A stretch of 64,000 nt of DNA from Naegleria gruberi. Lineage: Eukaryota. The stretch is from assembly GCA_000004985.1 (NCBI GenBank), contig GG738873.1. One strand, written 5' to 3'. This document shows positions 1-46,731 of the stretch, piece after piece. Both the position numbers and the translations under genes were made by a program. Positions within the stretch are counted from its first letter, which is position 1. Every line of letters begins with the position of its first letter. The notes under the pieces are model-generated. The model did not search any database and was not told where the DNA came from. It worked only from the letters and a program-made list of their open reading frames with translations.

Positions 1-7
1 TTGTAGC

Positions 8-397
8 ATGACATATACACTTCCAGCAGAGATTAGACCATCTTTCCCTTTTAGCGAGATTACTTTCAAGACCCATGCAGAGCTTGATCAATTTTGGTTA
101 ACTGTTTGTTCAAAACATGTAAAATGGGTTTCTAATGAAGGAGCGGCACATGAGGATTTGCTCAAAAGTTTTGACAGAGCATTTTGGATTCGAAGACTTT
201 CTTCAAAGGAAGGTTGCAATGAAGTTAATGAACCATTAAGAGAGGAACATAATGAAACTACTCAATCTCGTCGTTGTCTGTGTCCTTTCAATGTCTATGA
301 GATGGATACCCACACATTCTTCCTGGCTGAGTCTGTTATGGGTCAAAACTTTTTAGGAACTTGGGTTCCAGAAACACCTTATAGAGCTTTAAGGTAA
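8..397 (+). CDS. Hypothetical protein fragment. The ORF is open from the window edge and may be an internal exon; a GTAAAT donor-like site follows at 396.
   Basis: 129-aa ORF open to the 5' window edge, with no homologue I recognise. AT-poor coding-like composition. Confidence 0.3.
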   Translation: MTYTLPAEIRPSFPFSEITFKTHAELDQFWLTVCSKHVKWVSNEGAAHEDLLKSFDRAFWIRRLSSKEGCNEVNEPLREEHNETTQSRRCLCPFNVYEMDTHTFFLAESVMGQNFLGTWVPETPYRALR

Positions 398-3506: not shown

Positions 3507-4623
3507 ATGAACAAGTCATCAGCTTCATCAGCAGCCATGGACACAGGCTTTCAATCGGTAAATATTACTGATGAGTTGGAGTTGCTGGTGATTCTTCTAG
3601 ATATTAATCCGTATACGTGGGGAAAAAGAAAATTGGACAATGAACAACAACAATCATCATCAGCAAAAAGTTTAATTTCCTTCTCACAATTTATAAATCA
3701 ACTTCTTGTATTCATTAACACTTTCCTAACTATTCAGAGAAATAAGAAAATAGCAGTTATTGCTAGTTCGGAAAACAACAAATCACATTTTCTATTTCCG
3801 AATAGATTTAGATCAAAGAAGGATGGTAAACATAACCATAATCAAATTCAAGTTAAGAGTACTGATAGTACAAGTATGTTAAACATGATGGGTGTAAAAT
3901 CAGGAGATGATATCGAAGATTTCTTCTTGAATGATATTGGTTTTGAGAGTGTACAAAATGCAGTCTTATCCGGATTAAATAGTGAAGAAGTTACTCCGAG
4001 TGAAGACACTGAATATATGGAAGATGATGGCAATCACACCACTTCAACAGCACAGGGTTTCTCCCTCAGTGGTGCCTTGTCTATGGCTTTGTGTTTTATT
4101 AACAGATTGGAAAAGGAAAAACCTTTGGGAATGTCACTCAATTCTAGAATTTTAACATTCCAAGTTTCTCCTGATATTTCATCACAATATATTTCTGTCA
4201 TGAATGCCATTTTCTCAGCAGAGAAAATGAGTATCATGTTAGATGCTTGTGTTTTATCAAATGATGATTCCACATTTTTACAACAAGCTTGCTTCTTAAC
4301 TGGAGGAAATTATTTGAAACCTCAACGACAAGAAGGTTTAATTCAATATTTATTAACTATTTTCATGTTGGAAAAGAGTCTTCGTTCTTATATTCAATTA
4401 CCTGTACAAAATACTGTAGATTTCAGAGCAAGTTGTTTCGAAACTAGAAAGCCAATTGATGATGGTTATGTTTGTCCTGTTTGTTTATCAAGTAAGTATT
4501 TTAATATGAATGTTATGAGAATTCTAACCCATTTCAGTTTTCAGTTCTCACAAGCCAGTCTGTTCTACCTGTGCCTCTAAGTTACAAAGACCGACCAATA
4601 GATCTGTACTTTCGTACAAGTAA
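3507..4623 (+). CDS. gtf2h3: TFIIH subunit p34/Tfb4 (GTF2H3), 2 exons: 3507..4491, 4538..4623, with a 46-nt intron
   Basis: N-terminal LLVILLDINPYTWG matches p34 LLVIVVDANPIWWG. The C-terminal zinc finger spans the intron: CPVCLS|IFSSHKPVCSTC, compared with human CSVCLSIFCNFSPICTTC. Donor GTAAGT at 4492, acceptor …TTTCAG at 4537. The ORF track stops at 4580 because it reads into the intron. Confidence 0.8.
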
Positions 4624-5715: not shown

Positions 5716-7176
5716 TTAAATTCTGGCTCCATAATAGAAATGGTTCATTCTCTCCTCGAACAATAAATCAGAATATTCGAAAGCAAAACCGTTTTGCTTT
5801 ACGGCTTCCTTCTCCATCTCCTCATCTGGATATAATCGCTGCAGATATTTCAAGCAATGGCCATTAATTTTGATAAGACTCATTGCCATATCTCTGTCAA
5901 CATCTATGGCTGCATATTCTAGAACTGAAGGATAACCTTCTTTAACTAATTCCACTATGAATCCAGTATCTTCTCTCAACGCAGACGAGGCGTACATAAA
6001 TGATTCCTCAATAGAAGCCAAAGCTTCTTTAACAATCACCTTATCTGACTGTAGAGAGGGATGAACATACTGAAGAGCCAATCCTTGTTTTTTCACAATT
6101 TCTAACACAAATTCTCTATCACTCTTTAAATTATCTGAAGCTAAATAAAGAAATGACTGATTCTGTTTGTGATTTGCTGCTTCTATAAGAATCTCCTTAT
6201 CTACAACAAATTCATTTGGTACATATGTTAATGCCTCTGAATTTTGAGATACAGCAGCTAAAACAACATCTCTATCCATTCTTAGCCTATGTGATGCATA
6301 GTATATGAGCATTCCATCTTTTCTCATTAATTCAATAATAAACTCTTTGTTATCAATCAATGTAAAAGGAGCAAGTTCTAAAACAGAGTTTCTCTTCATT
6401 ATTAACTGTTTCATTAATTCCAAGTCTTGAAAACAATGTGGAATATGCTTAATAGCATATATTTCAGCAAGAGCTTGGACCATCACATCAAAATCATTTT
6501 TCAACTCGTCTGAAACAAATTCCAAGGCCCTTCCATTCAGTAACAAGGCAGCCAGTACAAATTCCTTATTATTTCTCAAACTATAAGGAGTTTCACTATT
6601 CAAATTGCAATCAGGAAGATTCATTCCCAAATATTTGTCGACCTTCGACACTTTTTCAATAAAGGATTGAGAATGAATCAAATCCTTCGATACAAATAAA
6701 ATTGCACGCCTATGTCTCGATACTATTTCCACATTAAAATCCTCATCACAATCAAAAAACAATAATATTTTAGGATCTAAAGAGATACAATCTAACAAGA
6801 ACTCTCTATCATCAAGTAATTCCCCAGGAATATCGTCAACCATACAAATACGATTTTTAAACAATTCAAGTGCTACTCGACGATTATACATTATAAACCT
6901 GGGAATCACCACTGTAGGAGTAATCTTTTGATTTTTAATTAAATTTAAAATCATATCTGTTTCTTTCATCCACTCGATTGGAATAAAACCTTCAAAAACC
7001 ATGCCACTCATCCGATCAAGCCTATTTTCCAACCATTTCTTCTTTCCTTTCTGTTGGTTAGAGAATTTACCTTTAAGAAGGCTTGTTAGAAATTCCAAAT
7101 GATCTTCAACTTCCGAATCATCACCCAATCCGTGTAAGGAACTTGACTGAGTAATAATCAAAACACAAGATGACAT
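5716..7176 (-). CDS. DUF4116 repeat-containing protein
   Basis: About 8 tandem ~36-aa repeats of the form (S/K)DRE(F/I)VL.AV.QNG.AL.Y(A/V)…L. This is the same repeat family found in the C-terminus of the kinase gene at 50865-53309. Confidence 0.6.
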   Translation of the reverse strand: MSSCVLIITQSSSLHGLGDDSEVEDHLEFLTSLLKGKFSNQQKGKKKWLENRLDRMSGMVFEGFIPIEWMKETDMILNLIKNQKITPTVVIPRFIMYNRRVALELFKNRICMVDDIPGELLDDREFLLDCISLDPKILLFFDCDEDFNVEIVSRHRRAILFVSKDLIHSQSFIEKVSKVDKYLGMNLPDCNLNSETPYSLRNNKEFVLAALLLNGRALEFVSDELKNDFDVMVQALAEIYAIKHIPHCFQDLELMKQLIMKRNSVLELAPFTLIDNKEFIIELMRKDGMLIYYASHRLRMDRDVVLAAVSQNSEALTYVPNEFVVDKEILIEAANHKQNQSFLYLASDNLKSDREFVLEIVKKQGLALQYVHPSLQSDKVIVKEALASIEESFMYASSALREDTGFIVELVKEGYPSVLEYAAIDVDRDMAMSLIKINGHCLKYLQRLYPDEEMEKEAVKQNGFAFEYSDLLFEERMNHFYYGARI

Positions 7177-15524: not shown

Positions 15525-17505
15525 TTAAACAGAAGGATTGCAGAAGAAGTAGAATTGTTGAATCATGATAATATACTCGATATAACCAACTTGAAAAAGT
15601 AGTGTTAATATTAAATTTTGAATTGAAATAGCTCAACTTACCAAAAGATGCACCAATAAGCGGAATTCTCTTGAATATTGGTAAAAGGATTGACTTTAAG
15701 ATTCTTTCCATTACAATTTCAAATAATGGTCCTCTGTACAAATAATGGGAAAGACTGCTTGTTCTTCTATTCAATTCCTCCTCAATTGTTGACCCAACTT
15801 CAGGTGGAACAGAAGGAGATTTTTCTTTAATATCTTTCTTTACAATTCTGATAGCTCTTCTTGTCAAATAAATAGATGCAAGCTCGATGATTAGAGACAC
15901 AATAAATGGTATCCATGATTTAAATCCATACTTGGAAAGAAGGTAGGCTAGAATATTTTAGAATTTCCAATATTCAAACTAGTGTGAAAAACTTACAATA
16001 AACTACTGGCCTTAATGAATACAAGGTATCTGATATGTACATGAGAATTTTACCAAGTGAACCCTTCAATTCTTCAGTTTGTGGGGAAAGTAACATGAAT
16101 TTATCTCCATCAATATTTAATCCTAATTGTTCTCCCAATTGAGACGTGGTTGGTACATCATCATTTCCACTCTTTAGCATTGCCATTAATTGATCAGATG
16201 AAGGAATTTGTCTTCCACTCCTCGAGCCAACCTTTGGTTTGGCTTGATTTTTATAATTATTTGCAAACTTTTCCATAGAAGCAGATTCCTTGTCAAATGG
16301 GGAATACTTTGGAACTACTGGAAGGAAAGATGCCATTGGAATATTACTGGCCTGTTCATCAGGTGGTAGGATGTTATAATTGAGGAAGAGTGGAGTGTTG
16401 GTTTTGGATTTAGAGGTTGCAAATAATTTAATGATTGCTCTATTTTGGTTAGTAATAGAATTTTGAAAACTTACTTGACAACTTCAGTCATAATTAACAA
16501 ATTCCAATAATTCTTTTTACCATTCTCTCCATATGTTGATCTCTTTTTGAAAATAATTTCAACAAGTAGAATGAAACACTCGAGTAATCTTAAATATTGA
16601 CCTGCTCTGTGATATGGTGAAAATCTATCATCTGATTGAATTCTCTTATTTTGCAACTTGTGCTTATCAGAGACGTAGTCTTGATACCATCCAATTACAG
16701 AAATCACAGTTGAAATCTTTTCAGTTTCATAAATATCATTCAAGAGTGACAAAGTTTCAGAACTTTCATTTTCAACGTCAACATCTGTTCTTGTTTTACT
16801 TCCCAGATACATTAAATTACCAAGACTTTTCATCATTTCAATTCTTCCCTTATTACTAATAATTAACTTTTCGAAAAAGTTCAAAATTTTAGATGGTACA
16901 CTTGTCAATGTAAATTCAGAATCATTCTTGTCATTTTCCAATGATGCTTGTTCATTACTTCTATTTTCTTGAATTGTGGAATTTCTTTCATTTCCTCTTC
17001 TGACAGGTTCTTCCTCTTCAATTGTTAATTCCTCAAATCTTGGAGTTTTAACAGGCTTTTCATAAATTTTAGGTGTTGATGCTTGTGTAGTATTTGGTGT
17101 TTTTAAATCCTCTTCTTTAATTTCATCACTAACATTAGGCTTTTTCAATTCATCATCACTATTAATTTCCTCCTTTTCATCATCAATTGTAAATATATTT
17201 GTTGGTTCGCATTGTTCATCGTCATCAATCTCAACTCTATTAAATTGTTGTTCTTGCTCTCGTTGATTATCCACAATTACCAAAGGCTCTGATGATGAGG
17301 AAGGAAGAGTTTCATCTTTCTCCGAGGCTTTATCAAGGATATTTGTTATTGTATGTTGCATCAGTGAATTAGCATCATCATTACTATTATTATTAGCCTC
17401 TTGAAAATCATCATCATTAATTGTCAGTCCGACCGAGATGTGATGATCATCAGCAGTTGCCAAAAGATTTACTTTAATTTTCCTTTGAGTTGTTTGCGTT
17501 GACAT
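15525..17505 (-). CDS. pex16: Peroxin PEX16 homologue, 4 exons on the minus strand: 17505..16475, 16346..15997, 15947..15642, 15589..15525
   Basis: The C-terminal exons give …YLYRGPLFEIVMERILKSILLPIFKRIPLIGASFG|VGYIEYIIMIQQFYFF…, compare human PEX16 [23 protein letters not shown]…GVGLV…PLMDYLPTWQKIYFY. Exon 1 carries LRLLECFILLVEI, compare LSVLECVEVFMEM. Introns have GTAAGT donors at 16474, 15996 and 15641 on the minus strand. The first ~190 aa are an acidic low-complexity N-terminal extension whose status is uncertain. Confidence 0.65.
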
Positions 17506-18760: not shown

Positions 18761-19817
18761 ATGACAAAGGGAGGTCAACTTGGATTTGCTTTGATATGTT
18801 TGTTTTCATTGTGTCTATTGTTGCATGTTGAGCATGTTTGGATGTCTCGTCCTAATTGTGCCTCAACAATCAGCACGACCAGTGCCAAAACAAGTGATTC
18901 ATTTAAGAAGAACACTCTCCAAATGCATGCAACTGAAGAAGAAGATTTTGAAATGATGCATGCAGTTACTGTCTTGGGCAGAGGGGGTGGTCGTGGTGGC
19001 AGAGGTGGCAGAGGTGGCCGTAGTGGTCGTGGAGGTACGAGGAGGTAAGGGAGGTAGAGGTGGATCTGCAGGTCGTGGAGGTAGAGGAGGTAGAGGAGGT
19101 CGTGGAGGCAGAGGTGGAAAAGGTGGAAAAGGTGGACGTGGAGGTAAAGGTGGTAAAGGTCGTGGACGTGGTGGAAGAGCTGGAAAATCAGGTAAAGGTG
19201 CAAAAGGTTCTAAAGGAGCCAAATCATCTACTGCCAAGTCAACCAAAGCCAGCAAAGCCCAAGGAAGAAGATCTAAAACATCCGTTTCAGCTTCTCGTTT
19301 GGGAACAGCAACTGGATTCACCTCCATCTCCTCTATCAGTCAAGTTAAAGAGCAAAAGGAGACCAGTAGAACTGGAACTAAATCAGAATCAGGAGGTTTA
19401 CGTTTCTCTAATGCTGCATTGTTGACAGCATTGAATTCTCCTGCACTATTTAATGGTATTCTTGGACCTACTTCATTGGATTTACCACAAGTTCAATTCA
19501 CATCATATTCTAATACAACATGTGTTGCATGTCAAGTTGAATGTAAAAAGAAGTGGAATGGTTTGGGACATAGATCTCTCTTTACAACATGCAAACATGA
19601 ATTTTTCTATTATGGATGTGAGAAGGCAACACCATGTTTGAGAACTAATAGTGCAACCACAAAAGAAACAGAATCGATGATTGCCATCTGTCTACACAGA
19701 AATGAATGCACATTGGAACCAAGTATTACTTTGGAATATTCTCAAAGATACAAGAATAGTGCTCTTTCAAAGATGATTGCAGATATTGCAACTTCCAATC
19801 AAGATCCAAGAAATTAA
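18761..19817 (+). CDS. Secreted RGG/GGK-repeat protein with a Cys-rich C-terminal domain, copy 1. The reading frame shifts by 1 nt near 19040-19048 inside the GGR repeat.
   Basis: Signal-peptide-like N-terminus MTKGGQLGFALICLFSLCLLL, then an (RGG)n/(KGG)n block, a Lys/Ser-rich block and a conserved 8-Cys domain (…TTCVACQVECKKKWNGLG.RSLFTTCKHEFFYYGCEK.TPCL…). The two ORF-track pieces (18761..19048 and 18960..19817) join if one base in 'ggt acg agg' is removed. This is a paralogue of 37345..38610 on the minus strand. Confidence 0.55.
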
Positions 19818-20106
19818 ACTTGTTTTTTACTTGGAAATTGATTAATATTGTATTCTATTGTATGCAAAGTTATCAGATCAATTCATAAGATCAAATAAGA
19901 TTCCAATAACACAGACGATATAGCAAGTGTTTCTCAGAAAGTAACGAAATGAAGAAACTTGATTGTTAAAAGGAATGAGTGAAGTTGCTGATTTCAATTT
20001 AGACGATTCGTTCTCTAGAAATGACTCTTCGAATATAATGAGACAGTGAACAAATCACTTTTCAAAAGAAACTTAACAGAAAAGAAATGGCTCAACACAT
20101 CTGGCA

Positions 20107-20201
20107 NNNNNNNNNNNNNNNNNNNNNNNNNNNNNNNNNNNNNNNNNNNNNNNNNNNNNNNNNNNNNNNNNNNNNNNNNNNNNNNNNNNNNNNNNNNNNN
20201 N
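20107..20201. other. Assembly gap (run of N); an additional single N lies at 20275
   Basis: Literal n characters in the sequence. Confidence 1.
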
Positions 20202-20329
20202 TTATTTGACAGCTGTCATGTGGAAAGATGTTGCTAATGAATACAAGTTAAAATCAACAGGAGATTTAAATACANCTTCTCAAACAACAACATGATCTAA
20301 ATATTGCCTACATTCCTACTAATTCGAAA

Positions 20330-22219
20330 ATGTCAGAATTATGGACAAGTGTCAGTTCAGAATTTTATAAAGCAAAGATGGTGAATTTTTATGTGTTTGT
20401 TCGAGGTTATGGGCAAAGATTTCACATTCTTGAAGATTTTGATATCATCATCACGTCCAGAAACTTGTTTTTGGAAAAGTTTAGATACTACCAGAAGGGT
20501 AGTGGAAAGAGAACTGAGAAGGGTCATTTATTCGAAACTTCTGACTTTGAATTTATAAATGTTCACCCATTTTCCGTTTACCAGGTGGATGAGGCTGCAA
20601 CTGGCTTGAATTTGAGTGTTATAGTTGCTAAACCATCATGTGAATCATCAACTCTTCTTTCGTTTGATTACGAACCTTCACTTTTCAACTCATGGCAAAT
20701 AATGAATTTGACAGAAGGGAAAATGATTTGTGATTACGACATGGAGTGCTTGAAAAGATATAACAAGATCGAGTTTAAATTGATATCTATGGTACGTTGG
20801 TGATTTATTTCTAACAATCAAAAGGTGAATCAACAAATTATTCGAAATGAAATTTCATCAGTCTACGGATTGACCAGTAATTCCTCAATTTCCCAATTAG
20901 AATCTCTTTACCTTCCACCATCATGCCACAATTGTCAAAATGAATATTGTGCCGATCTCATCTTTAACGATTTCGAATATTGGTTAATTCCACAAACTTT
21001 AATTGTAATCATTCATTTTCTTTTCCTTTTTTGTACTGGAGCATTGAAACAGCCATCAGTCAAGAGAAGATTATTCACGCCCTATTTACCAATCACTATT
21101 TTATATATCGAGTTGGCTATTTCTGATTTGTTTTGGCCAATTTGCAATCAATTGTTGACAAGTATTGGAATTATTGTTAATTTTTGCATTCTAGTTCATT
21201 TGTTTACCTATTTAAGGTTATATTATTTGAGGAATTTGTATGGAGTATTTTCATTATCAAAGAATATCAATTCTAAACTGTCAGGATTAGGTGGTATAAT
21301 TCCTGGAATGTTAGTTACATTAATTTTACCATTTTTCTTAAGTTTTTTGGTTTCTGTTCCATATATTGCAATCTATTTCATGGTTAATTTGGCTCTCAAT
21401 TTAGTATTCAACATTATTCTTGGCATTTCACTTGGTGTTGCCTGCATCATTGGATTTATTGTAATCTTAATTGACTTGGTTCTCAATAGGAAGAAGTGGA
21501 AAGAGAAGGGTTTGAGATATATGCTTTTCTTTGACGATCCATTCCTCATTAGAATTGACATGACCTTGTTAACAATTAATTTGATTTTTATCATTTTGAT
21601 TGCATCGGTAGGAGCTGTCTATCGACATGCTTCATACTTTTTCAGAGTGATGGTTTTTATGATATTTTGTTTGGTGAGTGGTGGAAGTTGTGTGATTAAA
21701 TTATTGGTTGAAAAGATGAGAGGAAATTCGAGGGATCACCAGGGAGAGGAGGATGTGATTGACACCTATCTGAAACATGATGATTTTAAGATGCTGTTTA
21801 GGGAATATTGTGTGAAGGAGTTGTCGTTGGAGAATTTTAATTTTTATATCATGTTAATTGATTTGAAAGCAAAGGCAAATAGGAGGTTGACCACTGAGAT
21901 GATGGATACTATTCAGAAAGAGTATTTGTCATCTTCAGCTATGTTCGAATTGAATATTTCAAGTCAGTGTAGACAATCTTTTTTCTTATTAAGGAAAAAT
22001 CTCGAAAAGCAAATTGCCAATTTAGAATTATCATCTAATAAGGATATGGCCTCTGATTCTGGTGAATCTCCATGTTTGAGAATTCATGATTTAATTTTAT
22101 TGTTCGAATATGAAGTGTTAACAAATCTCAAAGATACATTCTCAAGAATGGAGAAAACAAGTGAATTCAGAACATGGCTTCATACTCTCAAAATTCAAAA
22201 ACAAAACAACATTTGTTAA
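20330..22219 (+). CDS. Multi-pass (7-8 TM) membrane protein with a C-terminal RGS domain. Possibly 2 exons, 20330..20791 and 20825..22219, joined by a 33-nt intron; alternatively two separate genes.
   Basis: Downstream ORF: 7-8 hydrophobic helices (LIPQTLIVIIHFLFLFCTGAL, LPITILYIELAISDLFWPI, LLTSIGIIVNFCILVHLF, IIPGMLVTLILPFFLSFLVSV, YIAIYFMVNLALNLVFNIILGISLGVACIIGFIVILIDLVL, LLTINLIFIILIASVGAVY, VMVFMIFCLVSGGSCVIKLLV). Then an RGS domain: FKMLFREYCVKELSLENFNFYIMLIDLKA…IQKEYLSSSAMFELNIS…FEYEVLTNLKDTFSRMEKTSEFRTWL. The upstream 157-aa ORF ends in ATG|GTACGT…TTCTAACAATCAAAAG|GTG, i.e. an in-phase donor, a CTAAC branch point and an AG acceptor. Confidence 0.5.
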
Positions 22220-22390: not shown

Positions 22391-23830
22391 TTATTGTTGC
22401 TTTTGCTTCTTACACAGTTGCATTATAGCTTGACTTAGATCTGAGATCATATTGTTTTGAGCTTCTACTAGTTGGTAAAGTTTGGAAATATCTGAACTAT
22501 TCTTCTCAATTAGAAGAGTCAAACTCCTTATTCTACTATCCTCGCTTATCTTTCTCTTTCTATATGGTAAATCACTAGTAATACAATCAATATGTGGAAG
22601 GGAAGAATCTTTCATTGGAGAAGTGGCACTTTCTTGTTGAGGAACTGGAGGACTTGACAATGTTAAATCAGCAAAGCTGGGCAATCTTTCTTTCACAATA
22701 CTCGATGCAACATTAGCGAGGGAGGAGAGAGGATCAGAGGAACTTTGGTTAGTGCTGGAGATTGGAGATTGAATGATTGCTTTTTGCTTTAGTGAAGGTG
22801 GTATGGTAATAACTTCATCTTCAATGACGTTGGAAAGTGTGCTTATTTCTTGCTCACCTCCTTCATCAGATGGTGAATCATTCGATGAGGTGGTAGAATG
22901 AGATTGATGTACAATTTCAGATTGCTTGGATGCAGATGATGGCTCTTTTCTTCTCTTTGCCATGTCCAACATCATCTGACCTCTACTTCTTGATCTTACC
23001 CAGAAAGAATCAGAAACACATATTAGTTTGTTATTCGAATCATAGATATCAATGTATGCCACCCTACTACTTGTATTACCCTTCATGTTATTGATTTTAG
23101 ACACTACTTGAAACTCGACGACATGTTTTCTTGTTTTTGGATCAAACGTGAAGAATGCTTCAGTCACAACTTTTCCCCCAGCAGAATCTTTCAACTTGAG
23201 AAAGCTCTTACAATTCTCAAAGTCATTACCTTCAATCACAAGATAATCCTTGATGCTACAATTATGAGTTGTTGAGTGTGGATGTTTAGTTTTTGGATCA
23301 TTCAATCTCCATCCTTCTCTACACTCAAAAACAACAGCATGCTGTTGTTGAGCACCATTCACAAAGTGAAGACAAGGCTTAGAAATGGGAAATGATGAAA
23401 GGGAATCATTGGTAGTCTTTGGGAGAAGAGTTTGTGATTGGTAAGGTGATTGGTTAGTATTTACATTATCAAGCAAATTCATTTCAGTGATGGAGGTAGT
23501 GGTGATGGTCTGAGGAGATGATAAATGATTGGATGGATATTGATCGTCGGAATCAGTTAATGTACAAGATCCTGAAGAAATCACTTGAAAACTTCTATTC
23601 GATTCTGATGGTAACAATGTTGAATTGAGAAAGCCTTTGTTATTTAACAAGGATTCTTGCTTAATATTTGATTGATTGTTGGAACAACTTGTATCACTAC
23701 TAATAGAAGTATTATTACTATTACTACTACTACTATTCAACAGCAGCCGAGGCTTCGTTGCAGGTGGTGTTGTTGTGTTGGTGGTGGTGGTGTAACTTGA
23801 ACGAGGACTGTTTTCAGCAGAGGTGACCAT
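22391..23830 (-). CDS. Hypothetical Ser/Thr/Asn-rich protein with a central globular domain and a C-terminal coiled-coil
   Basis: 479-aa ORF. The central block HAVVFECREGWRLNDPKTKHPHSTTHNCSIKDYLVIEGNDFENCKSFLKLKDSAGGKVVTEAFFTFDPKTRKHVVEFQVVSK is non-repetitive. The C-terminus LYQLVEAQNNMISDLSQAIMQLCKKQKQQ is coiled-coil-like. I recognise no family. Confidence 0.45.
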   Translation of the reverse strand: MVTSAENSPRSSYTTTTNTTTPPATKPRLLLNSSSSNSNNTSISSDTSCSNNQSNIKQESLLNNKGFLNSTLLPSESNRSFQVISSGSCTLTDSDDQYPSNHLSSPQTITTTSITEMNLLDNVNTNQSPYQSQTLLPKTTNDSLSSFPISKPCLHFVNGAQQQHAVVFECREGWRLNDPKTKHPHSTTHNCSIKDYLVIEGNDFENCKSFLKLKDSAGGKVVTEAFFTFDPKTRKHVVEFQVVSKINNMKGNTSSRVAYIDIYDSNNKLICVSDSFWVRSRSRGQMMLDMAKRRKEPSSASKQSEIVHQSHSTTSSNDSPSDEGGEQEISTLSNVIEDEVITIPPSLKQKAIIQSPISSTNQSSSDPLSSLANVASSIVKERLPSFADLTLSSPPVPQQESATSPMKDSSLPHIDCITSDLPYRKRKISEDSRIRSLTLLIEKNSSDISKLYQLVEAQNNMISDLSQAIMQLCKKQKQQ

Positions 23831-26715: not shown

Positions 26716-27657
26716 TTAAATACTTTCTTTTTGATACTCTTCTGTTGTTACTCGTTTGTAATTAGATCCACAAATTATACAAGAAACGGAAAATCTTTTA
26801 GCCCAAGGTGACAGTGGCATGTAGGTGCTTATTCTGCCACAGAACTTGCATTCCTTAATTGGCATGCTATTACTTGGAGTACTAGATTGTCTCTTTTGTG
26901 GGAATTCAACAATAGGACCTTTCTTAGTGATACAATCATAAAACTTTTTGTGTGGTAAAATATCATACCCTTGTTTGAAAAGGAATCCTCTAAAGTTAGG
27001 TGCAAGATCCAAAAACTCAATATATTGTTGTGTTGAATATTGACAAATATACTCATTAGATCCAAAATTAGAGGATTGTAAAATTGATTTCCATGTTTCA
27101 ACATCCAAATAATTATTGGTCTTTAGAGCAGGGTTAGCTGCCAAAGACCAATAAAATTGAACAACTTGTGTAATTGTTTGTTGACTGAATATGAATGAAT
27201 CCACCTTGTTGTGTGTAACAACTACTGAAATTAAATACGCATAGAATGATAATTCCTTCAGAACATCCATTGAAATCTTGGATTTAATGAGTGAACTCTT
27301 TAAATTGCTGTTAATCAAAATGATAATTAGCAAACGTACCAAAAAGTATACAGAAATAGCGTGCTTTTTTTCAGTGGCTGGTTCATTAACAAGATCAGTG
27401 GCTGCTTTCTTTACGAACAGCAATAATCGAATACACCAGTTAGCAAATGGAGCAAATGGTAAAAGAACATTAGGATCCCTAAAGTTTCCAACCTTTTCAT
27501 CAATAATCTTTTTAACATTCTCAAATGATGCATCATTAAGCTGTTTATCAAAATTAGGAACAACTCTGTCATTTCTAATGACCTCTGTGATAGTCTTTGC
27601 ATATACCATAGATTGCATGTAAATACTGTGACCTCTCTTTGCAGCACTTGCACTCAT
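26716..27657 (-). CDS. Hypothetical protein with a C-terminal C4 zinc-ribbon (CKFCGR…CIICGS)
   Basis: 313-aa ORF with a C-terminal Cx2C…Cx2C motif. No family recognised. Confidence 0.4.
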   Translation of the reverse strand: MSASAAKRGHSIYMQSMVYAKTITEVIRNDRVVPNFDKQLNDASFENVKKIIDEKVGNFRDPNVLLPFAPFANWCIRLLLFVKKAATDLVNEPATEKKHAISVYFLVRLLIIILINSNLKSSLIKSKISMDVLKELSFYAYLISVVVTHNKVDSFIFSQQTITQVVQFYWSLAANPALKTNNYLDVETWKSILQSSNFGSNEYICQYSTQQYIEFLDLAPNFRGFLFKQGYDILPHKKFYDCITKKGPIVEFPQKRQSSTPSNSMPIKECKFCGRISTYMPLSPWAKRFSVSCIICGSNYKRVTTEEYQKESI

Positions 27658-27700
27658 ACTAATTCAATATTGTTAATAGTTCATGAAAATCCCAAATAAC

Positions 27701-29257
27701 TTACAAATAAATAGAAAATATAAACATTTCTAAAGAATAAATATAAATAACATTCTTGGAAGAATTTTCCAATTTCAATCTGCATTGTTCAAATTCTGCT
27801 CCAATAGTTGTAATTTCCTCAGGAGACACCAATTTTTTGATTGATGCAAATAAATCCCATCTGTCGTAATTGTTAATAAGACATAAATTAAGCATATTGA
27901 TATACTCTGCATTGGATCTCTTTTGTAATGGGAAGAGTCTAACTTTCATAGATGAATCTAAAACAGCAATAACACAACAATTTGGGGATATATCTGCATC
28001 ACAAATTGTGGTATCAACAGGTTCCTCTGTCAGTTTTCTCTTTTTTGGTAATGGATTATTAATAGGTTCTTCCAATATTAATTCATCAGTTTCTCCTTTG
28101 GTATCTATTGTTTGGTAGTGCTTGAAGGACATTATTTCTGCAGCATATTTATATACATGGACTTTAGTGGTATCTGTAAATAATAAATAATTTCCATCAA
28201 TTGAAGTTTTAAATGAGAGCATTTCGGCTTTAAGAGGAGTAAAGTGCTTATCTTCTCTCCAATATTTTAGGGCGTGGGTTATATCGTCTTTAGAGTCTTT
28301 GGAATCTTTAAATTGCAAGCTTTGATCTCCTGCACTGGTCATTACTGCTTTCAAGCTCATTCTTTTAGGGTATTGGTGATAAATCATATATTTGTTATCT
28401 TGGGTCTGTATCATGATCTTATTCTTATATGGAATCAAGTATAGACCTGCAACAAGACCATCTATTGAGAAGCAAGTTCTCGAAATTAATATTAAATTAT
28501 TTGGAAGGGTAGTATCTACATTTCTACCTCTTTCAATGGCTAACTTTGCAACATGAATAGTTGAACTATCTCTTTCTGAACATATTACACAAATATTTCC
28601 ATCTTCCAATATTGTGAAATCTGCACAAATAAGTCCATTTAAATTCAATTGAATACTAGAAGTTACCCATTTGTATTTTGAATGGTCATAGAAATAAAAT
28701 AAAACCTCTCCATGGCTTGTGATGGCAATAAATGAACGAGTTCCACTTGGTAAATTAACAATTGATGAATATTTTCGGGTGTATCTAGCTTCCAATTCTG
28801 GTGAATCATTATTAATTGTTGTATTGTCATTAAGATAAGTAATAACATTGTCACACCATTTACAACACAATACATTCTCGCAATAAAAAGTCTTTCTTAA
28901 ATGATAATCGTTAACACATTGATTGACACATTTCCACAAAGTAATAGTATTGTATCTATCATGAGACAATAACATTCCAACTCCTTGAGAAAGTTGCCAA
29001 TTTAATCCTCTAACTTCATCATACAAATGATTTGACGGAATTTTCTCCACTTTTGATGGTTCATTCGGATCCACAACAAAAATCTTGTTCTGTGTAGAAT
29101 AGGATAACATGTTATGCTTGTTGAAGGAAATTACTCCCTTTGGTACAAATTTACTTAGTTCGATCGGTTTTTCATCATCAATAGTACCATTCATCAAACT
29201 TTCCGTTCCATTAGCAACAAGAGAAAAACAACTTCCCTCTTGTGATGATCCGAGCAT
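27701..29257 (-). CDS. Hypothetical protein, possibly a beta-propeller-like repeat protein
   Basis: 518-aa ORF, non-low-complexity, with periodic hydrophobic/Trp-Asp-like patterns. No confident family assignment. Confidence 0.4.
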   Translation of the reverse strand: MLGSSQEGSCFSLVANGTESLMNGTIDDEKPIELSKFVPKGVISFNKHNMLSYSTQNKIFVVDPNEPSKVEKIPSNHLYDEVRGLNWQLSQGVGMLLSHDRYNTITLWKCVNQCVNDYHLRKTFYCENVLCCKWCDNVITYLNDNTTINNDSPELEARYTRKYSSIVNLPSGTRSFIAITSHGEVLFYFYDHSKYKWVTSSIQLNLNGLICADFTILEDGNICVICSERDSSTIHVAKLAIERGRNVDTTLPNNLILISRTCFSIDGLVAGLYLIPYKNKIMIQTQDNKYMIYHQYPKRMSLKAVMTSAGDQSLQFKDSKDSKDDITHALKYWREDKHFTPLKAEMLSFKTSIDGNYLLFTDTTKVHVYKYAAEIMSFKHYQTIDTKGETDELILEEPINNPLPKKRKLTEEPVDTTICDADISPNCCVIAVLDSSMKVRLFPLQKRSNAEYINMLNLCLINNYDRWDLFASIKKLVSPEEITTIGAEFEQCRLKLENSSKNVIYIYSLEMFIFSIYL

Positions 29258-44083: not shown

Positions 44084-46731
44084 CTAATCTTTCATATCAG
44101 TAAGCTTTCTTTCACATTCACGAATTAAACACCTCGATGGTAAATCATTTGGAGCAGTAATCAAGTATTGATTGAATAAATCCATTGCATCACTGTAGGC
44201 CTTATCAAAGTAATATTTGGTTCCTTGATTGTAGGAATTCCATTTTGTCAGCTTAATTTTCTCTTGCAATTCGTACATCCATTCATCTTCAGTAACTTTG
44301 AGAGAAGGTCCCAATTCATAGATTTTCAATTCTTCTTCATCTTGATACGATTGATAGGGAGTTCCTCCCATTCCATCCATGAAAGCATCATTCAGATTTG
44401 GATTCAAGCATGACGGGTCAATTGATTCCACAGAATCTACATAACGATTTTGGAATGATTTTTCACATCGTTCCTTAGTTGGTTGACTCATTACAAAGGA
44501 TAGGCCAAGTCGAAGAGCAGATGCCATTAACTTTTCCAAATTATATCGAACACTCGAGATGATTGTAAAGTTTTTCGCTTCATTTGTTCCAACATTTCCA
44601 CAAAATGCTTCTTGGGTATGAATGGCAAATCTAAAACTCACACAATCGAATAAATTTCCATACTTTTTGGTCAATTCTGGAGTTTTCCATTTTGAAACTT
44701 TGATATTTGAAAGTCTGGAAAGAAGAGTGGCTGCAGTTATAGCTCCCTTTTCTTCATGATTTGATTGACAAGAGGCAGCATTGAATGATATTGTAATAGT
44801 TTCATTTTCAAATTGACCAACAAATCCTCCCATACTTCTACTAACGCTATTCACTTGTTCAAACATATCAGACATGATATGAACCAATTCTGAAGGATTC
44901 ATTGTAATTAAACATTCTGAAAATCCATGAACTAGCAATTGAACACAAGTGATCACTCTTTGCTCCATGTACAGTGAAAACTTATGGCTCTTACAAACCT
45001 TTCGCATATGACTATCTGAATTCTTACTGTTCATAGATAGAGAGTTTTGACTGGAAGTGTCTCCTAATTTGGAAGATTGTAGTTTCTTTGAAGATTTCTT
45101 TTTAAAAGAATAATCTTCATGTGTTGGTTCTTCATCTTCTTCTGTTTCTTCTTTCTCTTCCTCTTGTCCATTCTCAATTTCTGAAAGTAAATGGGCAGGA
45201 ATGAAACTCTTATACAGCTTAATTCGGTTGACCATACTAAGAAAGTGACCTTGAAGTTGTTTCACCTCTGAAAATGCAGAAGTAATAATACTTAATTGTT
45301 CCAGATCCATTTTAGCAACACTTTCGAATTGTTCAATAAGATTATACAATGGTCTGGCTACTCTAATTGAAAAATAAACTCCCACAATGATACCAATAAC
45401 AATCGTAACAAATCCGGCAACACAGGCACAGATAATGGCAATGATCATTGAACCAACATAATTCCAGTATGGAACTGACAATACTATAGTCCAATCAATT
45501 TGAGAATTAGTACACAATCTAAAAACTGAATTGTAGAAATTATCATGGGAGATTAAGATTAGAGTATTGCAAGGAATGTTACTCCAATCTTTATACTGTT
45601 CAAGTAAATTGGCTCCTAATCGACTCACCTTATCATCTCCAACAGTAGATGGTGTTTTTCTATGTACTTGTCCACTGTTATCCCAAGTTGACAGTGGCAG
45701 CTCATTATTCACTATTATGAAAAATAAGATTATCTTTCCAAAAGTACTACTTACAAGCAATTAAAAATCCAGTTTTGGTTTCAACAATAAATCCAGTTGA
45801 TCTCTGAATATCACTTGTTTGCTCTCTTAAGAAATTAGAAATAGTCGTTACTGTTAAATCATTGGCAATGTAGTAATGGAAATTATGTCCATTGGGTAAG
45901 GGGTATTCACTATTCACAACACAATTGATTGAGGTAATGAAAGTATATTCTGGTACATTTGGATCAGTGTAGCTCAATGAAAAAACTTGTTGATTTGGGA
46001 AAGAATCACACACTGAAACCAATATACTCATATCGAAGAGTGTTGAATATTCATTCGGTGTGGAATTCCTAAAACATGTGTTATGTTTAGGAACATCAAG
46101 ACAATAGTAGATTTCTGATTGATTTCCATTCATTGAAGAATTAATGGTTGCTAAGTAAGGACCCCACTGAAGCTGACCAAAAGCAGATCCTGCATAATCA
46201 CCAGCATAGCTTGATATTGTTACATGTGAGAGGTATTTTAAAGAGGACTAATATTAGCATAGTAAACCATTCACACATCTGTTCAAGAAATTATTAAGGT
46301 TAATAACTTACCTTATAGCCAGAGTAGAGTACACGTTCAAGGTAATTGAAACTATCCTTATCATACATATATTCATCAGTGATGGTTTGTTGTTTGATGG
46401 CTTCATTAAGTACTGAAACTTCCACTAAAGTATCATTTGCAAAATTCAATATTGAAGTAAATTGTTCTTCTCTAATCATTGTTGATAGATTGAGGACACT
46501 TGGTGAAAAACTTGCCAAACAAGTAAGAGTCAATAGAAACACATTCAAAAACAGTAAACCACACGTCAGGACAATGATACAGCACCGAATGGAAGTTCCC
46601 TTCTTTTGTGTTGTTGTTGTTGTACCAGGAGTTCTTCTTGTTGATTTAGTAGGCTGATGAGTTTGTTCATGTGATTTCTTGTATTGATGTTCAGGTGCCA
46701 CTCTTTGTGATGACCTGAATGAGTGTAGCAT
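44084..46731 (-). CDS. Receptor-type class III nucleotidyl-cyclase-homology protein with apparently degenerate catalytic residues; 3 exons: 46731..46312, 46247..45755, 45711..44084
   Basis: Exon 1 has an N-terminal TM (IRCCIIVLTCGLLFLNVFLLTLTCL). Exons 2-3 give a ~250-aa ectodomain (Cys-containing, N-glycosylation sites), then TM2 (VGSMIIAIICACVAGFVTIVIGIIVGVYF) and a linker. The cyclase-homology domain reads VITCVQLLVHGFSEC (compare V.ILF.DIVGFT) and FAIHTQEAFCGNVGTNEAKNFTIISSVRYNLEKLMASA (compare GIHTGPV.AGVVG…Y.V.GDTVN.ASRMES). Introns have GTAAGT donors at 46311 and 45754 on the minus strand; the acceptors are AG at 46249-46248 and 45713-45712. Confidence 0.5.

What the first reader, a model, noticed from the sequence alone, without database searches (positions are those of the whole stretch)
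20330..22219. Multi-TM protein with a C-terminal RGS domain (7TM-RGS-like), possibly fused to a 154-aa N-terminal domain via a 33-nt micro-intron
A polytopic membrane region of 7-8 helices is followed by a clear RGS fold (FREYCVKELSLENFNFYIM… / …EYEVLTNLKDTFSRMEKTSEFRTWL). This architecture is known from plant AtRGS1-type proteins, where the 7TM receptor itself is the GAP, and is rare elsewhere. The upstream ORF ends …ISM|GTACGTtggtgatttattTCTAACaatcaaaAG|GTG…, an in-phase donor, branch point and acceptor spanning exactly 33 nt. That is shorter than the other introns here (39-128 nt) but has the correct motifs. If real, the N-terminal soluble domain has no signal peptide and must be cytosolic, which would require an even TM count (8) to keep the RGS domain cytosolic.
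Basis: partly seen in the sequence, partly recalled or inferred. Interest (0 to 1): 0.55.

Follow-up and report, generated by a model that had tools for sequence, protein, structure and literature searches.

The report
Naegleria receptor-like 7TM-RGS gene
This is an already annotated Naegleria gruberi gene for a cell-surface protein with an outside domain, seven membrane helices and an inside RGS (G-protein off-switch) domain; this class is already known and tested in Naegleria, so the finding is correct but ordinary, apart from a corrected gene start and a possible ligand-binding fold.

Summary
The window is Naegleria gruberi NEG-M. The two ORFs (20330-20803 and 20825-22219) are real, lie in the same frame and are joined by a 33-nt GT-AG intron (20792-20824). 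The public model NAEGRDRAFT_68613 (XP_002676220.1, 618 aa) is exactly this fused protein. The RGS domain is significant by Pfam (28.6 bits, cut-off 23.9), and the residues that contact G-alpha are conserved. Hydropathy averaged over the family gives exactly seven helices with N-out/C-in topology.

The gene starts at 20087, not 20330. An assembly gap (20107-20201) and a spurious N (20275) hide 87 residues, including a signal peptide. These were recovered from a contig of a ~98% identical environmental strain. The N-terminal domain is therefore extracellular, and there are 7 TM helices, not 8.

A 35-nt intron elsewhere in the window (in the Pex16 gene) shows that such micro-introns are genuine here.

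The class is known. N. fowleri has 28 7TM-RGS proteins whose RGS domains work as GAPs (Bosch 2022).

The only possibly new element is the ectodomain. Its predicted fold weakly but consistently resembles type II periplasmic binding proteins, across a large family found so far in Naegleria and Willaertia.

The parts
20087..20791 (+). Exon 1. It runs from the start codon ATG at 20087 and encodes the signal peptide and most of the extracellular domain. It is interrupted by assembly gap 20107-20201 and a spurious N at 20275.
   Evidence: 20087 is the first in-frame ATG after a stop. Strain contig L002 and protein P0008 begin MAQHI... at the same place and read through continuously.
20107..20201 (.). 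Assembly gap of 95 N. In the related strain this stretch is ~114 nt and encodes the signal-peptide h-region and the first ~40 residues of the ectodomain.
   Evidence: alignment of the window with L002.
20275..20275 (.). A single spurious N, an extra base that creates an apparent +1 frameshift. Removing it joins ...GDLNT to LLKQQHDLNIAY...
20792..20824 (+). A 33-nt phase-0 spliceosomal intron: GTACGT donor, TCTAAC branch site with the branch A at 20814 (10 nt from the 3' end), AG acceptor. It carries an in-frame TGA at 20801-20803.
   Evidence: It is spliced in the public model P0023. GT/AG and the TGA are kept in strain contig L002, where the donor is GTAAGT. Paralogs are colinear across the junction. 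A 35-nt analogue is validated in the Pex16 gene.
20825..22219 (+). Exon 2. It encodes the end of the ectodomain, the 7TM bundle and the RGS domain, and ends with the stop codon TAA at 22217-22219.
20924..20950 (+). Conserved juxtamembrane cysteine motif CxxCxxxxC, just before TM1.
   Evidence: Family consensus ...LPSTCxxCxxxxC....
20978..21709 (+). Seven-transmembrane region. TM1 20978-21040, TM2 21080-21142, TM3 21158-21226, TM4 21293-21373, TM5 21395-21478, TM6 21554-21616, TM7 21638-21709.
21755..22204 (+). Cytosolic RGS domain. The Pfam hit covers 21770-21979. A low-complexity insert lies before the last helices.

Best explanation
One two-exon gene (20087-22219, + strand; public locus NAEGRDRAFT_68613 of Naegleria gruberi NEG-M) encodes a protein of about 705 aa. 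Its parts, in order, are a signal peptide, an extracellular domain of about 265 aa, a CxxCxxxxC linker, seven transmembrane helices and a cytosolic RGS domain. A 33-nt GT-AG intron with an in-frame stop must be removed to join the ectodomain to the membrane part.

The protein most likely works as a receptor-type GTPase-activating protein. The RGS domain sits at the inner face of the membrane and accelerates GTP hydrolysis on Naegleria G-alpha subunits, some of which self-activate. An extracellular cue sensed by the ectodomain and 7TM part would change the availability of that GAP activity, as proposed for plant AtRGS1 and for the N. fowleri 7TM-RGS proteins.

Shown here: the gene structure, the RGS domain with conserved G-alpha contact residues, seven predicted helices, N-out/C-in topology, and a signal peptide (read from a near-identical strain). 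Inferred: GAP activity, ligand binding and the coupling between the two.
For: - Organism and locus. The neighbouring ORFs are exact matches to N. gruberi proteins EFC43560.1 and EFC43556.1. The fused 618-aa model EFC43476.1 equals ORF1 plus ORF2 spliced at the 33-nt intron.
- True 5' end. Strain contig L002 and protein P0008 supply the start and the signal peptide.
- Paralogs. Full-length paralogs of 697-784 aa share the layout ectodomain - 7TM - RGS; all but P0004 begin with a signal peptide. All are colinear across the exon junction.
- No independent start. ORF2 has no ATG until residue 161.
- Micro-intron precedent. Splicing out a 35-nt GTAAGT..TACTAAC..AG intron at 16440-16474(-) restores one continuous Pex16 domain, E=2e-28. 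The motif occurs twice against 0.22 expected. Minimum intron length was set to 30 bp for N. fowleri on the basis of predicted genes (PMC8296547).
- RGS domain.. The equivalents of RGS4 E87/N88, N128 and D163/R167 are at least 90% conserved in 39 family members.
- Topology. Seven hydropathy peaks. Mean K+R per loop is 3.7, 0.26, 5.0, 0.32, 5.6, 0.69 and 3.9 in order from ICL1 to the post-TM7 segment. There are 4 N-glycosylation sequons in the ectodomain.
- Class function. Isolated RGS domains of N. fowleri 7TM RGS2-4 accelerate GTP hydrolysis on Nf G-alpha2, 3, 5 and 7 (PMC9283941).
Against: - No RNA evidence was available, so the splice junction rests on homology, motif and the existing annotation.
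- The signal peptide is read from a related strain, because the window has a gap there.
- The AF2 model of the membrane part is low-confidence (pLDDT 45-75, pTM 0.36).
- No sequence similarity of the 7TM or the ectodomain to any Pfam family or solved structure was found.
- The environmental strain's allele carries a 2-nt deletion (frameshift) at 21078-21079. Substitutions between the strains are 10 synonymous to 15 non-synonymous. This particular paralog may therefore be under weak constraint.
- GAP activity of this protein is untested.
Confidence: 0.85

Rival explanations
1. These are two separate genes: a small secreted protein (exon 1, ending at the TGA at 20801-20803) and an independent 7TM-RGS protein.
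For: An in-frame TGA lies 9 nt after the proposed donor. Prokaryote-style gene callers, and one official paralog model (P0025, 250 aa), stop right there.
Against: ORF2 has no in-frame ATG before residue 161, which is inside TM4. Only 33 nt separate the ORFs. Ten or more paralogs and two unspliceable single-ORF metagenome relatives (P0007, P0014) are continuous across this point. The public model splices the intron.
Confidence: 0.03
2. The locus is a decaying pseudogene in a large, fast-turnover receptor family. The stop and the frameshift are real lesions, not an intron and an assembly artefact.
For: There is an apparent frameshift at 20275 and a stop at 20801. The environmental strain has a true 2-nt deletion at 21078-21079 in two independent assemblies. 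The substitution ratio is 10 synonymous to 15 non-synonymous.
Against: The 'frameshift' is a literal N next to a gap and is absent in the strain contig. The stop lies inside a perfect GT..CTAAC..AG unit that is also kept in the strain. The remaining ~2.1 kb is open, and every family-invariant residue is intact in the window copy.
Confidence: 0.05
3. The gene is as described, but the RGS domain is a non-catalytic scaffold or G-alpha effector-type module rather than a GAP.
For: Some RGS domains have lost GAP activity (statement in PMC3971589). Pfam aligns only the first two thirds of the domain, and there is an insert before the last helices.
Against: The G-alpha contact residues are conserved: E/N in KELSLEN, N in ELNIS and D..R in KDTFSR. 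The predicted fold superposes on RGS4 at 2.2 A. Tested N. fowleri 7TM-RGS domains are GAPs.
Confidence: 0.1
4. Retention of the in-frame, stop-containing 33-nt intron is used to produce a soluble, secreted ectodomain (244 aa) alongside the full receptor.
For: The intron is a multiple of 3 with a TGA at its fourth codon, and the TGA is conserved in the strain. A paralog model ends at the same point.
Against: This is purely structural inference with no expression data. Stop-containing short introns are the norm.
Confidence: 0.07

Closest known systems
Naegleria fowleri 7TM RGS protein family (28 members; Nf 7TM RGS1-4 studied by Bosch, Jeck & Siderovski 2022, PMC9283941)
   Same: Same genus. Same architecture: extracellular N-terminus, 7TM, C-terminal RGS. 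Belongs to a large lineage-specific expansion. The RGS domains have canonical G-alpha contact residues, and in N. fowleri they are demonstrated GAPs for self-activating G-alpha subunits.
   Different: The described N. fowleri examples have EGF-like, lectin and GPS-motif ectodomains. This subfamily has a ~265-aa ectodomain with no Pfam match, whose predicted fold resembles type II periplasmic binding proteins. Direct orthology to any of Nf 7TM RGS1-4 was not tested.
Arabidopsis AtRGS1 (plant 7TM-RGS)
   Same: A 7TM domain fused to a cytosolic C-terminal RGS box. The proposed logic is also the same: a membrane GAP restrains a self-activating G-alpha and is modulated by an extracellular cue.
   Different: AtRGS1 has no large signal-peptide-led ectodomain. 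No sequence similarity between the 7TM parts was detected or tested here. The fusion may have arisen independently: convergent domain arrangements are reported for RGS proteins (PMC3971589).
Class C GPCRs and iGluR ligand-binding domains (PBP-fold sensor plus membrane domain)
   Same: A bilobed solute-binding-protein-like ectodomain is placed in front of a membrane signalling module through a short Cys-containing linker.
Ultrashort spliceosomal introns (for example ~25-nt introns of Paramecium, PMC5014332)
   Same: A GT-AG intron near the lower size limit, a multiple of three, with an in-frame stop.
   Different: The Naegleria average is 203 nt (PMC8296547). The 33-35-nt examples here are the tail of the distribution, and they have a yeast-like CTAAC branch site 9-10 nt from the acceptor.

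Membership tests
RGS domain (Pfam PF00615) | Profile HMM score above the curated gathering threshold | tested here: met
   28.6 bits against 23.9, E=2e-6, residues 316-385 of ORF2. 8 of 11 family members hit.
RGS domain (Pfam PF00615) | All-helical RGS fold | tested here: met
RGS domain (Pfam PF00615) | Conserved G-alpha contact residues (RGS4 E87/N88, N128, D163/R167 equivalents; RGS4 numbering is from my own knowledge) | tested here: met
   KELSLEN, ELNIS and KDTFSR align to the RGS17/RGS10 motifs. These positions are at least 90% conserved in 39 family members.
RGS domain (Pfam PF00615) | GTPase-accelerating activity on a G-alpha subunit | not testable with these tools
   Needs a biochemical assay. 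Shown only for N. fowleri class members (PMC9283941).
7TM-RGS receptor-type GAPs (AtRGS1 / Naegleria 7TM RGS) | Seven transmembrane helices N-terminal to the RGS domain | tested here: met
7TM-RGS receptor-type GAPs (AtRGS1 / Naegleria 7TM RGS) | Topology that puts the RGS domain in the cytosol | tested here: met
   Signal peptide at the true N-terminus. Positive-inside pattern: 3.7/5.0/5.6/3.9 K+R in the inside loops against 0.26/0.32/0.69 outside. N-glycosylation sequons occur only in the ectodomain, plus one in the RGS domain. This is a prediction only.
7TM-RGS receptor-type GAPs (AtRGS1 / Naegleria 7TM RGS) | Sequence homology of the 7TM part to AtRGS1 or to Nf 7TM RGS1-4 | not tested
Named homologues came only from N. 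gruberi, N. lovaniensis and Willaertia magna; the other hits were unnamed ENA metagenome proteins.
Class C-like / PBP-ectodomain receptors | Bilobed periplasmic-binding-protein fold in the ectodomain | tested here: inconclusive
Class C-like / PBP-ectodomain receptors | 7tm_3-type transmembrane domain | tested here: not met
   No Pfam family hits the TM region in any of 11 members, even at E<=10.
Spliceosomal GT-AG intron | GT donor, branch-site consensus and AG acceptor, with removal needed to restore the ORF and colinearity with homologues | tested here: met
   GTACGT..TCTAAC..AG. In-frame TGA inside. 34 of 38 relatives have no insertion at the junction. The motif occurs 2 times against 0.22 expected. 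Conserved in a second strain.
Spliceosomal GT-AG intron | Spliced junction observed in RNA | not testable with these tools
   No transcript data could be reached. The scan of JGI metagenome contigs for the spliced junction was empty, but so was the exon control.

The most novel reading that the evidence does not exclude
The ectodomain is a genuine type II periplasmic-binding-protein (solute-binding, clamshell) domain. That would define a large family of 'PBP-7TM-RGS' receptors in which binding of a small molecule directly gates a membrane GAP acting on self-activating G-alpha subunits. All named members come from Naegleria and Willaertia (heteroloboseans). The family has at least 105 clusters at 50% identity with E<=1e-30, about 50 of them full length. 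This would be a third, independent marriage of a PBP sensor with a eukaryotic membrane signalling module, besides class C GPCRs and iGluRs. It was not noted in the N. fowleri 7TM-RGS study.
Probability: 0.35. Interest if true: 0.5.

Novelty: new member of a known kind. Interest (0 to 1): 0.25.

Why it matters
The practical value is modest. First, it corrects a public gene model: NAEGRDRAFT_68613 lacks its first 87 residues and its signal peptide because of an assembly gap and an inserted N. The correction reverses the inferred topology of the N-terminal domain. Second, it shows that 33-35-nt introns are real in N. gruberi and are sometimes missed, as in the Pex16 model NAEGRDRAFT_68610, which is truncated. 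Third, if the PBP-like fold holds, this subfamily offers ectodomains that could be screened for ligands. Such screens could address how extracellular cues control GAP-type receptors, a question left open for both AtRGS1 and the N. fowleri 7TM-RGS proteins.

Tried and rejected
- I first concluded that the gene was unannotated, because the homology searches showed no 100% hit. That was wrong. The public 618-aa model was hidden inside the 90% cluster of an environmental protein.
- Look-ups of genomic DNA for N. gruberi paralogs P0002, P0003 and P0009, to test whether the intron position is conserved, were not on record.
- The Logan contig for P0024 came from the same run as the ENA contig and does not reach the intron.
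- A scan of JGI metagenome contigs for the spliced junction was empty, and so was an exon control, so the result is uninformative.
The membrane part and the ectodomain were therefore modelled separately with shallow alignments.
- The afdb50 fold library was unavailable.
- Pfam at E<=10 gives nothing for the ectodomain or the 7TM part. A 39-member profile against the PDB gives only RGS hits.
- Long relatives carry no recognisable extra Pfam domains.
- Bradford 2013 and Anantharaman 2011 could not be read.
- Alternative acceptors for the donor at 20792 (introns of 69, 261 or 273 nt) were rejected because they delete conserved residues or TM1 (reasoning).

Full report
**What is there.** The window is AT-rich eukaryotic DNA. 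Exact look-ups identify it as Naegleria gruberi NEG-M. ORF 22394-23830(-) is EFC43560.1 and ORF 5719-7176(-) is EFC43556.1, both on a 461,873-bp scaffold. At the finding, ORF 20330-20803 (157 aa) and ORF 20825-22219 (464 aa) lie in the same reading frame. They are separated by a single TGA at 20801-20803. The 33 nt at 20792-20824 read GTACGTTGGTGATTTATTTCTAACAATCAAAAG.

**Gene model and the 33-nt intron.** Homology searches return N. gruberi paralogs of 697-761 aa, an N. lovaniensis protein of 784 aa and a Willaertia magna protein. Apart from the shorter N. gruberi protein P0013 (561 aa), they share the layout N-terminal domain - 7TM - RGS. The spliced product aligns across the exon junction without a gap...KLISM|VNQQIIRN... 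against ...NLMSVTNQQLFRT... and ...KQLNKYNQQIILN.... In a 39-member alignment, 34 of 38 relatives have no insertion at that point. Two relatives come from metagenome contigs where genes were called without splicing (P0007, P0014), and both are single ORFs across the junction. ORF2 has no in-frame ATG until residue 161, inside TM4, so it cannot be a stand-alone gene.

EFC43476.1 / XP_002676220.1 / UniProt D2VIA2 (NAEGRDRAFT_68613, 618 aa) reads ...KIEFKLISMVNQQIIRNE.... My interim idea that the gene was unannotated was wrong.

**Are 33-nt introns credible here?** Yes, for four reasons.
- A scan for donors flanked by long open frames found short candidates of 35, 43, 46, 49, 53 and 64 nt.
- The 35-nt candidate, 16440-16474(-), reads GTAAGT...TACTAAC-7 nt-AG and has the same architecture as the 33-nt one. 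Removing it together with the 49-nt candidate yields one continuous Pfam Pex16 match, E=2.2e-28, residues 261-596, spanning both junctions. The public model for that gene (EFC43559.1, 344 aa) reads into the intron and stops.
- The composite motif GTA[ACT]GT-8..24-CTAAC-4..12-AG occurs exactly twice in the 64 kb on both strands. Those are these two sites, against 0.22 expected by chance.
- A second strain keeps the GT, the AG, the branch site and the TGA, with a single change that turns GTACGT into GTAAGT.

The literature sets the minimum intron at 30 bp for N. fowleri 'based on an assessment of predicted genes', and gives an N. gruberi mean of 203 bp (PMC8296547). What is missing is RNA evidence, which I could not reach.

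**The true N-terminus.** Searching with the N-terminal domain found P0008, a 244-aa protein on an ENA metagenome contig (L002). That contig comes from a strain whose contig L001 is 98.5% identical to the window. P0008 begins MAQHILALVLILLVQVQINIVECNSFVSK.... The window has ATGGCTCAACACATC (MAQHI) at 20087, the first ATG after a stop. It then runs straight into the 95-N gap at 20107-20201, which corresponds to about 114 nt in L002. After the gap the window reads YLTAVMWKDV..., which matches a motif found in most family members (N/D-Y-L/M-x-A-x-x-W). The frame then appears to shift at the single N at 20275. L002 shows that this N is simply an extra base.

The gene therefore starts at 20087. Exon 1 encodes 241 aa, and the whole protein is about 705 aa, in line with paralogs of 697-728 aa.

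**Topology.** That inference was no signal peptide, hence a cytosolic domain, hence 8 TM helices.
- Kyte-Doolittle analysis of the protein gives the signal peptide plus TM1 and TM3-7 as strong peaks, with a weaker TM2.
- Hydropathy averaged over 39 family members gives exactly seven peaks.
- Mean K+R per loop alternates: ICL1 3.7, ECL1 0.26, ICL2 5.0, ECL2 0.32, ICL3 5.6, ECL3 0.69, post-TM7 3.9. This is a textbook positive-inside pattern for N-out/C-in.
- Four N-x-S/T sequons lie in the ectodomain.
- Family-invariant motifs sit at cytoplasmic helix ends: KRRLxxPY after TM1, RxYYLRNLY after TM3 (the position of the DRY motif in class A receptors) and KEKGLRxxLFFDDPFxxRxD before TM6.

**The ectodomain.** No Pfam family hits it, and no PDB sequence does either. 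The AF2 model of P0008 has pLDDT 65.5 overall. The core (residues 26-177) is mostly 65-90, and the last ~70 residues are poor. It is alpha/beta.
- Foldseek returns the same class, but weakly, with E about 1e-3 and TM about 0.3.

This is a consistent but low-strength signal. I treat 'PBP-like ligand-binding ectodomain' as a hypothesis at roughly 35-50%.

**Family size.** A profile search of 1.84 billion cluster representatives gives 905 proteins at E<=1e-3 and 105 at E<=1e-30. About 50 of them match over the whole length, from ectodomain to RGS. Named members come only from Naegleria and Willaertia.

**Comparison with what is known.**
- 7TM-RGS proteins are established in plants (AtRGS1) and Trichomonas, and in 'many bikonts', chytrids, filastereans and ichthyosporeans (PMC3971589; PMC3865004).
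- N. gruberi is reported to have 229 RGS genes (PMC5784254) and about 44 G-alpha subunits (PMC8584482).
- Most directly, Bosch, Jeck and Siderovski (2022, PMC9283941) describe 28 7TM-RGS proteins in N. fowleri. They show that the RGS domains of three of them are selective GAPs for Nf G-alpha2, 3, 5 and 7, which includes self-activating subunits. They note ectodomains with EGF-like, lectin and GPS modules. They do not mention a PBP-type ectodomain.

The gene here is thus an uncharacterised member of a known and experimentally supported class.

**Mechanism.**
- Shown or strongly supported: a secretory signal, a large extracellular domain, seven helices, and a cytosolic RGS domain with intact G-alpha contact residues.
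- Also inferred: a cue bound by the ectodomain and 7TM part changes GAP access, either by conformation or by endocytosis as in AtRGS1, and so releases signalling.

**Caveats.** The environmental strain's allele has a 2-nt deletion at 21078-21079 and a 12-nt deletion at 21163-21174, seen in two independent assemblies of the same run. Substitutions between the strains are 10 synonymous to 15 non-synonymous. This paralog may be dispensable or decaying in that strain, as expected in a large, fast-evolving receptor family. The window copy itself is intact apart from the assembly artefacts.

**Verdict.** The finding is a new member of a known kind, and interest is low to moderate.

Noticed in passing
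window 15948-17505 (- strand): This is a Pex16 gene. The public model NAEGRDRAFT_68610 (EFC43559.1, 344 aa) stops inside an unrecognised 35-nt intron at 16440-16474 (GTAAGT..TACTAAC..AG). Splicing out that intron and a 49-nt intron (15948-15996) gives one continuous Pfam Pex16 match, E=2.2e-28, across both junctions. The public model is therefore truncated. The 3' end of my reconstruction probably needs one more intron.
   Followed up: partly
window 20107-20201 and 20275: A 95-N assembly gap (about 114 nt in a related strain) and a single inserted N mask the start, the signal peptide and 87 residues of NAEGRDRAFT_68613. There is also a 1-nt discrepancy at the gap edge: ATCTGGCA in the window against ATCTTGGCA in the strain.
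   Followed up: yes
L001 and L003 (run ERR1078381), aligned to window 21078-21079 and 21163-21174: A ~98.5% identical environmental Naegleria strain carries a 2-nt deletion (a frameshift just before TM2) and a 12-nt deletion in this gene. Both appear in the ENA and the Logan assemblies. Substitutions against the window are 10 synonymous to 15 non-synonymous, including Cys to Ser at 20729. The gene may be a pseudogene in that strain.
   Followed up: partly
protein P0025 (NAEGRDRAFT_75820, a paralog on another scaffold): The 250-aa public model of the closest paralog ends ...NFKILSK|VGFLKYCF*, immediately after the position homologous to the 33-nt intron. This looks like read-through into an intron at the same phase-0 site, with the 7TM-RGS part left unannotated or annotated separately. 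Its DNA was not retrievable.
   Followed up: no
window 26716-29257 (- strand): Two long ORFs (518 and 313 aa) can be joined by a 46-nt GTAAGT..TTAAC..AG candidate intron (27659-27704) into an 831-aa product. That exact product is not in the protein collection, so the public model probably differs.
   Followed up: no
window 4492-4544(+), 45712-45754(-), 46248-46311(-): These are further short candidate introns (53, 43 and 64 nt) with GTAAGT donors, flanked by long open frames. The 43-nt one has no recognisable CTAAC-type branch site.
   Followed up: no
window 18960-19817 (+ strand): The ORF immediately upstream encodes a protein with a long Gly/Arg-rich repeat tract (RGGKGGRGGSAGRGGRGG...). It has no Pfam hit, and this exact ORF is not in the protein collection.
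   Followed up: no
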